Shown here piece after piece: positions 9,001 through 12,738 of a stretch of 12,738 nt of DNA (positions are counted from its first letter, which is position 1; every line of letters begins with the position of its first letter). The stretch spans positions 1-12,738 of IMG/VR virus record IMGVR_UViG_2802429224_000008; one strand, given 5' to 3'. Made by a program: the position numbers. The DNA is from a virus (taxonomy: Duplodnaviria; Heunggongvirae; Uroviricota; Caudoviricetes).

Positions 9001-12000
9001 TGCCTTTGCATTGTGAGCGGTAAACTATCCATGATCGAAGAAATCTGGCGCGCCAGACCACGAAGCGCATAGAGAACGAACTCAGTATCTGTAACTTCCC
9101 CCGTCTCCCTGGCGTTCTTCAGTTCCTGCCCGTCTGCCTGTGCTTTGGTGAGGCGGTAGCGTTCGTACTCTGTTGTGCCTGGCTGTAAATCTGATTCACC
9201 AGCAGCACGTAAATCATCAGGCTCCCTGCGGAGTTTTTCATTTTCGATGTCCTTCTCCCTCTGTGCATACCATTCGATCACCTGTGCAGAATTGAATGCC
9301 ACCTCCACACCTTTACCGCCACCAGATACATGAGGAAGCCCTTGCGTCTGCCAGCCTTCAATTGTGCGCGGATCAACACCGAAAATCTCCGCCAGTCTCT
9401 TTTTGTTAACATTCATTTATCAAATCCTCATCAAAAAACACCTCCGACATGAAATGTCAGGAAAACGGGATTTTATGGCGTTATGGTGTCGGAGGTTTCA
9501 GATTGTTGATTTTAATAAAAACAAACAGTTATGCGCGAGAAGTACCGACACGCTTTTCCCCTGAAAAATTTTCATAAACAGTTAAGAATTGCGCGTACCC
9601 GTCCCCCCGGCGCTTAAGGTTCCGGGAAGGACCCGCAGGAGATAGCTACCGTAAGGCGTAATTAAATATCCGGGGATGTGCCACGAAACAACCTGCTGAA
9701 TGCAGGTCAGCGTGATGACGGGAAATAAAGAGAATATACGGGAAGGAAAAAAATATTAGTTTGAAAACTAATGTCCAATTAAACTCTAACATGCGTCCCT
9801 GTAAACAATAACAAGTAAGCAATCAGAGTCTTTCTAATTTACGGGAGGATACTCCCGTACTTTTTTAAAGGCAACGTGAATTGCAACGTTTGTGATGTTT
9901 ACGGGTAAACAGTAACGCTTTTGATATGAATGTTTTTATCTGGTTGCTGTTTTTATTCAGTTAATGTTTATAGGGAATCTTTCAATGAAAAAAACACTGA
10001 TTGCGCTGGCGGTGGCGGCTTCTGCTGTGGTGTCTGGTTCTGCGATGGCTGCTGGCTGGGAACAAAACGGTACGGGTACTGATGTTGTGCTGGGAGGCAC
10101 ACTGACCCCGGTTGCGAAGGTAACTCCGTGGGAAGTAAAAACGGGTGATGCGGTAACTAACCTTGATGCGCAGGTTCAGAAAGGGCAAACCTCTGTCACT
10201 GTTAGTGTAAACCAGGCAATCCCTGTTCTGGGTATTCGTACTCAAACTGCGGATGTGTTCACGGGGATTGCCGGGATTTCTCCGCAGGTTGATTATGGTG
10301 GTGCGATTGATGTAAACGGTTTTTCTGCCGGGGTGACCACCCTGACTCTGGATGTGACTGATGCTAATGGTGAGAAAATGGGCACCATGTCCGCTCCATT
10401 TTTAGCCGGTGCCGGGGTGTCTCGTACAGGCTCCAGCGAAGATGCATATTCTGCCTATGTTTATGACGGTTATGATGTATCTTCCTTTAAAGGCGGACTT
10501 GGTGCTTCTGCAGAGCAAATATTGCCGGATCTGGCTACGGTGATTAGCCGTGTAGGTGCACTTGATTCTGGATTCACTGCTAATTTTAATCAACAGGGTT
10601 TAGCTAGCGGCAGCGTATGGCGCTCAACTCCATTTGAAAATACGGAAACCCAATATAGTGGCTTCTACGGCTCTGGTATTGAATCTGGCAGCAAAATTGC
10701 CATCACTCTTGATACGGCAGTTTCCGGTGATGGTGAGATTGCGTGGAAAGCTTCCCTGCCGGTGACTGTTACCTACATGTAATTTAGCGTCTCGTTAAAT
10801 TATTAAAACAAGCGGCGACGTTCTCCGTCGTCGCTTTGTTTCCTTCCCTTCAGTAACACCATATCCCGCTAAAGCTCTGACATAAATTTTTGTTGTCTGG
10901 TTGCGAATTCTCACCCTGGTGAATCTCCTGCACTACCTGTAATTTTTACGCAAAAAACCCTGGCATTTCTAAGCATGGTTATCGCAAATTTTGCGCAAAA
11001 CACCTTAACAATTCTTAACATCGATGCGCAGTTTTTACGGCCCGGGATAATGGTGGTTTTATACGCTATATAGTTCGTTATATGTTGAGCAAGAAACAGC
11101 CAAAATCAACATGGTAAAAATATATTCTGTTAAAATTCAACACATTAATAAGATGATGATGATGGATAAAAATTCAAAAATTAGCCTTTTTCCGCGCGTC
11201 CGTCGCCCCGCGGTAAGGGTACCCATCCAGGAGGACCCACGACGATCGGGGCGTTTCATCAACGTCATGCGTTATGCCGGATTAACTGCGTACGTAATAC
11301 GTACGGACATCGGGACAAAGACGAACAGTATTCTGGTTCAGTGCAAAACAACGTTAAACGTGGTTTTGCGTCCTGAGAGTCATCGTAATGGTTTTATGCG
11401 CCCTGCGTTGCGCTGGTGGGCTTTTCCACTATTAGTGGGAAACATGGCACCACATCCACCAGCTTAAACACGCTTCACCTTCCCGTTATCAGTCGCCACA
11501 ATTACGGCATTGTTTTCCATCACCACGGAGGCCATAACGATGACCGAAGCCGAAATGCTCAAAATGATTCGCCAGATTGCCGGGATCAGACCACCAGCAG
11601 GCAAACAGGAGGCCACGCAGCCGGACAGCGTTATCGCTGAGAACTATGCGCGTGTGGTGGCTGAGGTGATGCGCCGTGACGGTATCGAGCTAAACGGCGT
11701 TGATATGCGCGACATACGAATCAGAGTTCTGGAGATGTTGTCATATCGTCGCCGCGTGGAGATGTACCGGGAGAGCGAGAAAAATACTTACCAGTGGAAG
11801 AAGCCAGAGCGATTACGGCGGTAACCAGTTGATAAAAAGGCTCCTCAATTTTGAGGAGGGTAGCTGGTGGTGGTAAGCCGTTGATTAAGAGGCGGCTCAA
11901 AATTGAGCCGGGTTGCTGGTGGTGATAACTCATTGAGATTAAAGCAAAGCGCAAAATTGCGCCCTGTAGCTAGTGGCTGGCAGAATGTAAATTTACATTC

Positions 12001-12738
12001 TGGTGATTTAATCATCTGATTTACCCGATGGCTTGCCTTACCAGGCCATAGCGGATTACCGTGCAATGCGCACCATCGCCACCAATACGCACATCAAAAC
12101 GTGGCTCACGGACTTTCACACGCTCCAGCAACTCATCACGAACCATAGCGTTTAGCGTCCTTCGTGTTGCCTCTATGTGATATCGCTGATATTCGGAACC
12201 ATAGAGCAACACTGTCACACCACGAACATCAAAAGGCGGATCTCCGGCCTCCACCCGCACCCAATCGCGATACTCAGGTTTGTAGAGTTCAAGAATCTGT
12301 TTTTTGTGCCTGGTCATTCTCATGTGTGATTCCTTATTGTGGGACAGTACTGTCATACAATAAGCTATGCGGGAAATTATCAAAAGAACAGAAACCAACC
12401 ATTCAGAGTTAACAGGTATCAATGGGATTATGCTTATGGTGCATGATGACAAAGCGGAAGAACTGGAAGCTAAAGGTTTATGGCGACGGGCGGCTAATCG
12501 CTGGGGTGAGTTACTGAAACAGGCAGCAAGTGATGAAGCGCGTCAGTATGTAACGGAACGACGAACGGCATGCATCCGGAAGGCAACCATAACCCGGGAA
12601 CCGGAAAGAGACCTGATTTGTGCCATAAGAACCGCCGCCACAAAAACACTAACGGACATGGGGATCGACCTGAAAAAAGAAGATCCACTACGAGGCATTC
12701 AGCACGGACATACAAAGCAGAATAAACGCAGGAAGTAA

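What the first reader, a model, noticed from the sequence alone, without database searches (positions are those of the whole stretch)
11829..12010. Tandem palindrome-plus-Chi repeat array between two convergent small genes
Three to four units of about 52-54 bp each carry a perfect 6-11 bp palindromic stem with an A/T centre, followed by GT(A/T)GCTGGTGG. Two units have the exact E. coli Chi octamer in the same orientation (11863-11870, 11915-11922), a third has a one-mismatch variant and the fourth is degenerate. Two perfect Chi sites 52 bp apart in a repeated scaffold is far above chance for an 8-mer. On DNA that enters cells as a linear cos-ended molecule this could attenuate RecBCD approaching from higher coordinates; alternatively the palindromes are bidirectional terminators or dimeric protein sites and Chi is incidental.
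Basis: seen in the sequence. Interest (0 to 1): 0.7.

Follow-up and report, generated by a model that had tools for sequence, protein, structure and literature searches.

The report
Hairpin-plus-Chi repeats in a Chi-saturated satellite island
The repeat array is real, but its two Chi sites are a small part of a larger pattern: this E. coli phage-satellite island and its relatives carry about one RecBCD-controlling Chi site per kilobase, several times the host chromosome's density.

Summary
Observation confirmed. Three direct repeats (spacing 52 and 54 bp) plus a fourth, different palindrome lie between convergent genes at 11822-12023. Exact Chi sites are at 11863 and 11915 (+), with a one-mismatch copy at 11969.

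The window is an E. coli-type PICI (phage-inducible chromosomal island) with a Nu1-like small terminase and two lambda-like cos copies, so cos-ended linear DNA is plausible. The array is not a special Chi cassette, though. The window holds 19 Chi sites (0.54 expected), in all frames, on both strands and in non-coding DNA. A synonymous-codon shuffle expects 2.7 in genes against 14 observed. Eighty related islands have a median of 0.97 Chi/kb, while flanking chromosome has 0.09-0.34/kb. P4 and a neighbouring gam+ prophage have none. No Gam or recombinase was detected.

The repeat scaffold occurs across the family without Chi. Each unit has an IHF-consensus core, a hairpin of variable sequence 6-10 nt away, and a G-rich tail (GCTGGCGG in sister arrays). 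Unit number varies from 1 to 3, with junctions at the Chi tail. E. coli A34 has three exact Chi sites in its array.

Best reading: an intergenic IHF-site/hairpin module that picked up Chi under island-wide selection for Chi, as in Rec-less lambdoid phages. I found no paper linking PICIs and Chi.

The parts
11540..11824 (+). Conserved 94-aa PICI gene ('gene A', phrog_1561, function unknown). Its stop codon lies inside the first repeat core.
   Evidence: 978 homologue clusters, all annotated 'hypothetical', mostly from E. coli. Found in 80 IMG/VR loci, usually directly after TerS or TerL.
11822..11870 (+). Repeat unit 1. Minus-strand IHF consensus TATCAACTGGTTA (11822-11834), hairpin CTCCTCAA/TTGAGGAG (11841-11858), tail GGTAGCTGGTGG with exact Chi at 11863-11870.
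   Evidence: Flagged as terminator-like on the minus strand.
11874..11922 (+). Repeat unit 2. Minus-strand IHF consensus AATCAACGGCTTA (11874-11886), hairpin CGGCTCAA/TTGAGCCG (11893-11910), exact Chi at 11915-11922.
11926..11976 (+). Repeat unit 3. Core with one mismatch (TAACTCATTGAGA, 11926-11938), hairpin GCGCAAAATTGCGC (11949-11962), one-mismatch Chi GCTAGTGG at 11969-11976. This position is an exact Chi in E. coli A34.
11981..12002 (.). Terminal perfect palindrome CAGAATGTAAA/TTTACATTCTG. It is not a unit of the same scaffold. It travels with the array even where the minus-strand gene is absent (A34).
12021..12323 (-). Convergent 100-aa gene ('gene B', function unknown), present in only some relatives.
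1163..11598 (.). The other 17 exact Chi octamers of the island. Plus strand: 1163, 2237, 4869, 4931, 6316, 7145, 8175, 8292, 11412. Minus strand: 3076, 3826, 5462, 6342, 7761, 8508, 11456, 11591.
   Evidence: 19 sites against 0.54 expected. (Chi is the commonest octamer). (all frames, sense and antisense; 5 of 19 are intergenic; synonymous shuffle gives 2.7 +/- 1.4 against 14).
9417..9700 (-). Lambda-like cos copy 1 (cosN-like GGGACGGGTACGCGC through an I1-like region), directly upstream of TerS.
   Evidence: alignment to lambda cos.
8611..8743 (+). Cos-like copy 2, inverted relative to copy 1, on the other side of TerS.
   Evidence: 76% identity to the core of copy 1. The same inverted pair occurs in 10 related loci.
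8832..9416 (-). Nu1-like small terminase. In most relatives it lies on the plus strand directly upstream of gene A.
   Evidence: PF07471, E = 1.9e-67.

Best explanation
The array is this lineage's Chi-bearing version of a non-coding module shared by enterobacterial PICIs (phage-inducible chromosomal islands) and cf-PICIs (their capsid-forming relatives).

The module. It starts at the stop codon of a conserved 94-aa gene that closes the packaging gene block. It is a run of direct repeats, each made of three parts:
- a match to the IHF consensus WATCAANNNNTTR on the minus strand, with a T-rich stretch 5' of it;
- a short stable hairpin 6-10 nt away, whose structure is kept while its sequence turns over;
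- a G-rich tail ending in GG-TAAC, which begins the next unit.

How Chi arose here. In this lineage the tail reads GCTGGTGG, one transition away from the GCTGGCGG of sister arrays. This is not a local peculiarity. The whole island is packed with Chi on both strands at the DNA level, and I detected no Gam or recombinase.

Inferred mechanism.
- When island DNA has a double-strand end (a rolling-circle tail, a cos end after injection, or a break), RecBCD enters and soon meets a correctly oriented Chi. It then stops degrading and loads RecA. Host RecBCD thereby stands in for the Red/Gam functions the satellite lacks, as proposed for Rec-less lambdoid phages and P1.
- The two (three in strain A34) same-orientation Chi sites of the array raise the chance of recognition for an enzyme travelling from the attR side towards the packaging genes.
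- The Chi tails are also the longest identity shared between units, and unit gain and loss occurs there.
- The hairpin/IHF scaffold most likely has a separate job at the boundary of two convergent transcription units: RNA 3'-end formation, insulation or mRNA 3' protection, on IHF-bent DNA.

Shown versus inferred. Shown: the sequence anatomy, the Chi statistics, the family distribution, the copy-number polymorphism, and that no Rec/Gam homologue was detected. Inferred: RecBCD action, IHF binding and the RNA-level role.
For: Chi excess in the window:
- 19 Chi against 0.54 expected.
- Chi is the commonest octamer, 19 against 10 for the next, which overlaps Chi.
- 19 exact sites against 23 sites spread over all 24 one-mismatch variants.
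- Sites lie in all three frames, sense and antisense, and 5 are intergenic. A synonymous-codon shuffle gives 2.7 +/- 1.4 against 14 observed, with 0 of 2000 shuffles reaching 14.

Chi excess in the family:
- 80 related loci have a median of 0.97 Chi/kb. By class the densities are 0.88, 1.06 and 1.02/kb, and exact Chi is 14-21 times commoner than the mean one-mismatch variant.

Contrasts within genomes:
- A36: island 1.56/kb (14:8 by strand), flank 0.34/kb (16:1).
- A34: island 1.32/kb, flank 0.09/kb.
- CFT073: PICI 0.98/kb, chromosome 0.25/kb, neighbouring exo-bet-gam prophage 0 in 27.7 kb.
- P4 satellite: 0.

Other Chi evidence:
- No Gam or recombinase hit in Pfam, PHROGs or NCBIfam.
- Precedent: Rec-less lambdoid phages and P1 carry about 1 Chi per 1.9 kb (PMC12315714; PMC8791490).
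- The window's Chi sites are retained in homologues 183 times out of 251, against about 127 expected from flank identity (observed counts; the expectation is my own arithmetic on those figures).

The repeat scaffold:
- 46 perfect minus-strand IHF-consensus hits in 27.7 kb of arrays, against 7 on the plus strand and 0.06-0.11/kb background.
- Only 3 perfect hits in the whole window, 2 of them in the array.
- 56% of 73 units have a perfect stem of 5 bp or more, against 9% of shuffles. There are 16 distinct stem sequences, starting 6-10 nt after the core.
- The array persists with or without gene B.
- Indel junctions fall exactly at GGTA|GCTGGTGG, and every one of 6 variants keeps at least one exact Chi.
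Against: - There is no orientation bias of Chi relative to TerS/cos in this island class (204:182). The Chi nearest to cos is usually in the inactive orientation. The array's own Chi sites face away from both cos copies.
- Helper lambdoid phages often make Gam, which would silence RecBCD in the donor cell.
- EcCICFT073 transfers at high frequency into a recA recipient (PMC6092414), so RecA-dependent steps are not essential for establishment.
- Pooled per-base conservation of the Chi octamers is only slightly above their flanks (0.923 against 0.912).
- The related loci share ancestry, so the family counts are not independent.
- IHF binding rests on a 16-bit consensus only.
- The hairpins lack a U-tract on the plus strand, and only two of four look like terminators on the minus strand. 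There is no G-U strand asymmetry.
- Several small ORFs are unannotated and could hide a novel RecBCD inhibitor.
Confidence: 0.5

Rival explanations
1. Dedicated anti-RecBCD cassette. On this view the tandem Chi array evolved specifically to stop RecBCD entering the linear cos-ended island DNA, and the palindromes serve that function.
For: There are 2 exact Chi sites in one orientation here and 3 in A34. Every variant of this array lineage keeps at least one exact Chi. A cos-type packaging module is present.
Against: The array's Chi sites face the wrong way for entry at either cos copy, and other correctly oriented Chi sites lie closer. The same scaffold is common without Chi. The single-unit form is the commonest. 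The pair is expected at the island's own Chi density.
Confidence: 0.12
2. Chi in the array is a by-product. The units need a G-rich tail (GCTGGYGG-TAAC) for another reason, a C-to-T change happens to spell Chi, and tandem duplication copied it. On this view the array's function has nothing to do with RecBCD.
For: Sister arrays have GCTGGCGG, GGCTGGGCGG or GTCGGCGCGG at the same place. One-mismatch versions come and go between relatives. With 22% divergence between units, chance retention of 8 bases is about 0.14 (my own calculation).
Against: The island-wide DNA-level excess of exact Chi, including other non-coding sites, shows that selection acts on this octamer here. A34 has three exact Chi sites, and 6 of 6 array variants keep at least one.
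Confidence: 0.2
3. DNA-level architectural element. Phased IHF sites (52-54 bp, about 5 helical turns) with adjacent palindromes would build a bent nucleoprotein structure used in packaging or replication. This would resemble an accessory cos/cosB region or the P4 crr (cis-required region for replication), sitting next to the TerS-gene A block.
For: The IHF-consensus core is the best conserved part of the unit, and the consensus N positions vary while the specified positions are kept. The spacing is regular. The array always follows the terminase/gene A block. Lambda cosB uses an IHF site (PMC9026076).
Against: Unit number varies from 1 to more than 6 with no obvious constraint. More than 16 different palindrome sequences argue against a single sequence-specific partner. 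The cos-like sequences map elsewhere. The cores do not match the island's iterons or P4-type arm repeats.
Confidence: 0.15
4. Pure transcription terminators or an insulator. The hairpins would be tandem intrinsic terminators for minus-strand transcription (gene B, or read-in from outside the island), and nothing more.
For: Units 1 and 3 score as terminator-like on the minus strand. The 8 nt 3' of the stem average 3.5 T on the minus strand against 1.3 on the plus strand. The location is between convergent genes.
Against: The array persists where gene B is absent. Unit 2 and the terminal palindrome lack a U-tract. A terminator does not explain the conserved ATCAA-N4-TTA core. There is no G-U strand asymmetry.
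Confidence: 0.2

Closest known systems
Chi-rich, Rec-module-less lambdoid phages (LLS type) and phage P1 (Bobay et al. 2013; Zheng et al. 2025, PMC12315714)
   Same: A mobile element with no detected recombinase or RecBCD inhibitor. Chi is its commonest octamer, its Chi density exceeds the host's, and codon usage does not explain this. A neighbouring gam+ prophage has none.
   Different: This is a 12-14 kb satellite, not a phage. Its density is about 2-3 times higher (1-1.5/kb against 0.53/kb). In this island class there is no bias towards the lambda-active orientation and no terminal clustering. Dependence on RecBCD is untested.
E. coli BIME-1 / RIB / RIP elements (REP palindromes flanking an IHF site; recalled from general knowledge)
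   Same: Short palindromic hairpins combined with an IHF consensus, in tandem, in a 3' intergenic region between convergent genes. Structure is conserved more than sequence.
   Different: No dispersal (about one locus per genome, found only in PICI islands wherever I inspected the context). The units are direct repeats, not inverted REP pairs. The hairpins are much shorter (5-12 bp stems). In this lineage the tail carries Chi.
Tandem intrinsic terminators between convergent genes
   Same: GC-containing stem-loops. Two of them are followed by U-rich tracts on the minus strand.
   Different: There is no U-tract on the plus strand, two hairpins have none on either strand, and there is a conserved protein-site-like core at a fixed distance.
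Engineered multi-Chi cassettes that protect linear DNA from RecBCD (recalled from general knowledge)
   Same: Two or three co-oriented exact Chi sites within about 110 bp would raise the recognition probability per passage.
   Different: This is a natural array, embedded in a hairpin/IHF scaffold, variable in copy number, and not next to a DNA end.

Membership tests
E. coli Chi site | Exact octamer 5'-GCTGGTGG-3' | tested here: met
   11863-11870 and 11915-11922, plus strand. The third copy has one mismatch.
E. coli Chi site | Oriented so that RecBCD from the relevant DNA end approaches from the 3' side | tested here: inconclusive
   The array's Chi sites are read by an enzyme coming from higher coordinates. 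Both cos copies lie at lower coordinates, and other correctly oriented Chi sites are closer to them. The relevant end is unknown.
E. coli Chi site | RecBCD-dependent hotspot or protection activity | not testable with these tools
   Needs genetic crosses or DNA-protection assays.
Chi-rich Rec-less mobile elements (LLS/P1 type) | Chi density above that of the host chromosome and unexplained by codon usage | tested here: met
   1.49/kb against 0.09-0.34/kb in flanks and 0.22/kb in K-12 (PMC12315714). Synonymous shuffle gives 2.7 against 14.
Chi-rich Rec-less mobile elements (LLS/P1 type) | No recombinase and no RecBCD inhibitor encoded | tested here: met
   No such hit in Pfam, PHROGs or NCBIfam for the ORFs scanned; only an SSB. 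Caveat: several small ORFs have no annotation.
Chi-rich Rec-less mobile elements (LLS/P1 type) | Chi predominantly in the packaging-active orientation and clustered near one end | tested here: not met
   Window 11:8. Nu1-class islands 204:182 relative to TerS. Only the cf-PICI class shows 138:69.
Chi-rich Rec-less mobile elements (LLS/P1 type) | Growth or transfer enhanced by RecBCD | not testable with these tools
   Experimental.
IHF binding site | WATCAANNNNTTR with an A/T-rich stretch 5' of it | tested here: met
   Perfect at 11822-11834 and 11874-11886 (minus strand), preceded by TTTTT and CTCTT. Unit 3 has one mismatch. Enriched and strand-biased across the family's arrays.
IHF binding site | IHF actually binds and bends the DNA | not testable with these tools
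   Needs EMSA, footprinting or ChIP.
Intrinsic terminator | Stable GC-containing stem-loop directly followed by a U-tract | tested here: inconclusive
   Met for units 1 and 3 on the minus strand only. Not met for unit 2, for the terminal palindrome, or for any hairpin on the plus strand.
REP/BIME dispersed repeats | Hundreds of copies dispersed in intergenic regions of the host chromosome | tested here: not met
   Median of one place per genome, in 190 of 5426 genomes (113 with the shorter query); every hit region inspected was a PICI or cf-PICI island.
Lambda-type cos site | Similarity to cosN/cosB next to a Nu1-type TerS gene | tested here: not met
   The array has no such similarity. The cos-like sequences are at 9417-9700 and 8611-8743.
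Known RNA family (Rfam) | A covariance-model match | tested here: not met
   No relevant hit in the window, in the A34 array region or in a cf-PICI array.

The most novel reading that the evidence does not exclude
Enterobacterial PICIs and cf-PICIs would be the most Chi-dense replicons yet noted: about 1 per kb and up to 2 per kb, on both strands. That is 4-7 times the host chromosome and 2-3 times phage LLS or P1. The reading is that these satellites, lacking any Red/Gam module, depend on the host RecBCD-Chi-RecA pathway. The dependence could lie in surviving as linear or rolling-circle DNA, in making or resolving the concatemers they need for packaging, or in exchanging modules. Within this picture the hairpin-IHF-Chi array would be a built-in recombination and copy-number hotspot at the boundary between the packaging block and the variable accessory region. 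RecBCD cutting just beyond Chi there would leave a 3' tail that carries a stable hairpin just upstream of its end.
Probability: 0.3. Interest if true: 0.7.

Novelty: new variant of a known kind. Interest (0 to 1): 0.5.

Why it matters
Chi density is currently used to tell phages that inhibit RecBCD from phages that exploit it. Finding the extreme of that scale in phage satellites extends the rule to a new class of mobile element. It also predicts a host dependency (RecBCD, perhaps RecA and IHF) for PICI spread, which can be tested with existing model islands and helpers. That matters because PICIs move virulence and defence genes between strains. In addition, the work defines a previously undescribed non-coding module, the IHF-consensus/hairpin repeats after a conserved gene. 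This module marks the end of the packaging block in hundreds of E. coli islands.

Tried and rejected
- Rfam, on the window, the A34 array region and a cf-PICI array: no relevant family.
- The array against 50,697 phage records: only marginal 36-41 nt matches inside unrelated genes.
- Identity of gene A: no PDB sequence match. AlphaFold gives a three-helix model at pLDDT 71. Foldseek against the PDB finds nothing below E = 1. Genes B and o118 also have no PDB match.
- RNAalifold on 18 aligned units predicted no consensus pairs, because odd and even loops shift the register. I relied on per-unit stem statistics against shuffles instead.
- G-U asymmetry and strand-specific folding energies, used to decide which strand is the functional RNA: no clear asymmetry.
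- Chi placement relative to cos ends: the active orientation is not nearer.
- Chi orientation relative to TerS in this island class: no bias.
- Clustering of Chi into close pairs: 6 adjacent pairs within 140 bp against about 3.4 expected, not significant (my arithmetic).
- P4-type integrase arm repeats (TGCCCCCAA) and the island's own iterons (ATAACCCGCA) do not match the repeat core.
- The CRISPR-like reading was rejected. Here the flanks are conserved and the hairpins vary, which is the reverse of a CRISPR array, and there are no cas genes.
- Literature searches for PICI or satellite together with Chi found nothing specific.
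Full report
**What the window is.** The 12.7-kb window is an E. coli-type phage-inducible chromosomal island (PICI).
- It encodes a tyrosine integrase with a P4-type arm-binding domain (1-1242), AlpA (1757-1963) and an Icd-like C-terminus in the ORF at 1968-3170.
- It also encodes DUF4222, a DUF927 primase (3927-6050) followed by iterons at 6079-6223, and an SSB.
- Further genes are a ProQ/FinO protein, two PerC-like regulators, a Nu1-like small terminase on the minus strand (8832-9416) and an orphan K88 fimbrial subunit.
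- The closest complete-genome relatives are mosaic islands in E. coli, about 94% identical over 55-74% of the window. One example is inserted in yifB in strain A36.

**The observation.**
- Three direct repeats start at 11822, 11874 and 11926, with spacing of 52 and 54 bp.
- Each has a perfect stem of 8, 8 or 6 bp with an A/T centre.
- The tails are GGTAGCTGGTGG, GGTTGCTGGTGG and TGTAGCTAGTGG. That gives exact Chi at 11863 and 11915 on the plus strand and a one-mismatch copy at 11969.
- A fourth perfect palindrome (11981-12002) follows, but it lacks the unit scaffold.
- The array lies between a plus-strand 94-aa gene (11540-11824, 'gene A') and a minus-strand 100-aa gene (12021-12323, 'gene B').
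- Both strands fold into four hairpins better than any of 200 shuffles.

**The wider Chi signal.** Chi is not confined to the array.
- The window has 19 exact Chi sites (11 plus, 8 minus), against 0.54 expected from dinucleotide-preserving shuffles.
- Chi is the commonest octamer, 19 against 10 for the runner-up, which overlaps Chi.
- Exact Chi (19) is nearly as frequent as all 24 one-mismatch variants together (23).
- The sites occupy all three frames on the sense and antisense strands, and five are intergenic.
- Shuffling synonymous codons within genes predicts 2.7 +/- 1.4 Chi in coding DNA, against 14 observed, with 0 of 2000 shuffles reaching 14. The enrichment is therefore selected at the DNA level.
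- At the K-12 density of one Chi per 4.6 kb (PMC12315714), 19 in 12.7 kb has a Poisson probability of about 1e-10.
- Given this density, one same-strand pair within 52 bp is roughly what chance gives. The array pair is also a product of tandem duplication.

**Family-wide behaviour.** Eighty IMG/VR loci encode a relative of gene A.
- Their median density is 0.97 Chi/kb, with a range of 0.32-2.0.
- By class: capsid-forming PICIs with their own TerL have 0.88/kb, Nu1-TerS islands 1.06/kb, and the rest 1.02/kb. In each class exact Chi is 14-21 times commoner than the average one-mismatch variant.
- Internal controls all agree:

| Genome or element | Island | Comparison |
|---|---|---|
| A36 | 22 Chi in 14.1 kb, 14:8 by strand | flank 17 in 50 kb, 16:1 |
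| A34 | 19 in 14.4 kb | flank 1 in 11.5 kb |
| CFT073 | PICI between roxA and phoQ, 11 in 11.25 kb | chromosome beside it 2 in 8.15 kb; adjacent exo-bet-gam lambdoid prophage 0 in 27.7 kb |
| P4 | 0 | none |

- The window's Chi sites are retained in homologous segments more often than flank divergence predicts. One search gives 183 of 251; the expectation of about 127 is my own arithmetic on those figures. Pooled per-base conservation is only slightly higher than the flanks, and the loci are not independent.
- No Gam, Abc2-like inhibitor or recombinase was detected. The only recombination-related gene is an SSB.
- This matches the rule described for lambdoid phages: elements with a Rec module plus Gam lack Chi, and elements without them accumulate it (PMC12315714; PMC8791490).
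- I found no paper in the searchable library that links PICIs or satellites with Chi.

**The repeat scaffold.** In relatives, gene A is always followed by the same kind of non-coding array, and usually without Chi.
- A catalogue of unique units gives the architecture: [GG-]TAAC-NN-G(T/C)TGAT(A/T), then 6-10 A/T-rich nt, then a hairpin, then RG(C/T)(C/T)GG...GG-TAAC.
- The conserved core is the reverse complement of the IHF consensus WATCAANNNNTTR. In the units examined, the consensus N positions vary while the specified positions are kept.
- Perfect consensus matches number 46 in 27.7 kb of arrays in the minus orientation. That compares with 7 in the plus orientation and 0.06-0.11/kb in whole loci.
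- The entire window has three perfect matches, two of them in the array.
- 56% of 73 units carry a perfect stem of 5 bp or more (loop of 3 or more), against 9% of shuffled controls. There are 16 different stem sequences at a fixed offset. Structure, not sequence, is maintained.
- Where this lineage has GCTGGTGG, sister arrays have GCTGGCGG, GGCTGGGCGG or GTCGGCGCGG. Chi is therefore one transition from a pre-existing tail motif.
- In cf-PICIs and in A34 the array continues into 0.4-0.9 kb of further diverse hairpins up to attR.

**Copy-number polymorphism.** An alignment of six variants shows 3 units in the window and in A34, 2 in A36 and L024, and 1 in STEC383 and many other strains.
- The deletions are of exactly one or two units.
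- Their junctions fall at GGTA|GCTGGTGG, the longest identity shared between units.
- A34 has three exact Chi sites (13049, 13101 and 13155 in L088).
- Every variant keeps at least one exact plus-strand Chi, although which unit carries it differs.
- The U1-U2 tandem is rare: 5 of 5426 complete genomes at 80% coverage or more. The single-unit form is common.
- The unit occurs at about one place per genome, on chromosomes, never plasmids. Every hit region I inspected was a PICI or cf-PICI island. So the refutation condition 'common host repeat' is not met.

**Relation to cos.** Upstream of TerS there is a sequence that aligns with lambda cos, from a cosN-like GGGACGGGTACGCGC through the I1 region (9417-9700, minus strand).
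- A second, inverted copy sits on the other side of TerS (8611-8743, plus strand). Ten relatives show the same inverted pair.
- Linear cos-ended DNA is therefore plausible.
- The array's Chi sites, however, are read only by an enzyme coming from higher coordinates, that is, from the attR side.
- RecBCD entering at either cos would first meet 8292/8175 (going down) or 11456/11591 (going up).
- Across relatives, the Chi nearest to cos is more often in the inactive orientation (20 against 3 on the cosQ side, 20 against 5 on the cosB side).
- Chi shows no orientation bias relative to TerS in this island class (204:182). cf-PICIs show 2:1.

**How it most likely works.**
- Shown: the anatomy, the statistics, the distribution and the polymorphism.
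- Inferred, for Chi. The island relies on host RecBCD-Chi instead of Red/Gam. Any double-strand end on island DNA leads RecBCD to a correctly oriented Chi within about 1-2 kb. That converts degradation into RecA loading. The array contributes two or three co-oriented sites for one direction of travel, and it provides the homology at which units are gained and lost.
- Inferred, for the scaffold. It predates Chi and is tied to gene A rather than to gene B. It most likely acts at the boundary of the packaging operon, as RNA 3'-end structures (terminator-like on the minus strand for units 1 and 3, 3'-protecting hairpins on the plus strand) on IHF-bent DNA.

**Points against.**
- Helper Gam would silence RecBCD in many donor cells.
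- EcCICFT073 establishes in a recA recipient (PMC6092414).
- There is no orientation optimisation relative to cos.
- IHF binding and the RNA ends are unverified.

**Comparison with known systems.**
- For Chi, the closest known kind is the 'no Rec module, high Chi' class of lambdoid phages, and P1. The island meets the criteria of density, commonest octamer and absence of a Rec module. It fails the orientation and terminal-clustering criterion.
- For the scaffold, the closest analogue is the BIME-1/RIB/RIP combination of REP palindromes with an IHF site. The PICI units are not dispersed, are direct repeats, and share no evident sequence with REP.
- The array is not a cos site, matches no Rfam family, and is not CRISPR-like.

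**Verdict.** The array alone is of modest interest. The island- and family-wide Chi saturation of PICIs, and the undescribed IHF-consensus/hairpin module, are the more valuable results, and both can be tested experimentally.

Noticed in passing
window 8611-8743 (+) and 9417-9700 (-), flanking TerS 8832-9416: Two lambda-like cos copies in inverted orientation bracket the Nu1-like TerS gene. TerS orientation differs between relatives, and 10 related loci have the same inverted pair. This may mean an invertible segment, or packaging in either direction. It recalls the unexplained cos1/cos2 of EcCICFT073.
   Followed up: partly
L089 (E. coli CFT073, NC_004431.1 1375000-1424999): Within one genome, the PICI between roxA and phoQ has 11 Chi in 11.25 kb. 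The adjacent lambdoid prophage encoding exo, bet and gam has 0 in 27.7 kb. The chromosome between them has 2 in 8.15 kb.
   Followed up: yes
L003 2770-3420, L005 3000-3620, L088 13200-14000, L089 13650-14100: Downstream of gene A, cf-PICIs and the A34 island have 0.4-0.9 kb of non-coding DNA up to attR. It is packed with dozens of different perfect short hairpins (for example TGGTCATAATGACCA, GACTATCTTTCAGATAGTC, TATGGGGATCCCCATA). There is no Rfam match.
   Followed up: partly
window 6079-6223: Iterons (ATAACCCGCA, five copies, plus a 21-bp repeat x2.5) lie directly after the DUF927 primase gene. This is presumably the island's replication origin.
   Followed up: no
window 8187-8223 and 8320-8480: Short GTCAC repeats are followed by a block (GGGAGGATCAAATCCC...GGTTCGAAAAC...). 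In other islands (L014, L051, L076) this block directly follows gene A instead of the hairpin array, so it is a modular alternative. ARAGORN finds no tRNA gene.
   Followed up: partly
window 6316/6342 and 11412/11456: Chi sites occur as close inverted pairs (plus then minus, 26 and 44 bp apart). One pair is inside ssb and is conserved in 27-45 homologous sequences. Such a pair gives an active Chi for either direction of travel.
   Followed up: no
window 9964-10782: An orphan K88/F4-type fimbrial subunit gene (PF02432, E = 2.8e-51), with no usher or chaperone, is carried as cargo. It lies inside the island's only long Chi-free stretch (8516-11411).
   Followed up: no
window 7770-7782 (-): The only other perfect IHF consensus in the window lies one base from a minus-strand Chi (TATCAATAAATTG-C-GCTGGTGG).
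   Followed up: no
69 of 85 related loci: Nearly all islands of this family encode their own SSB, whereas the ProQ/FinO gene was found in only 20 loci. An SSB alongside extreme Chi density may be functionally linked.
   Followed up: no
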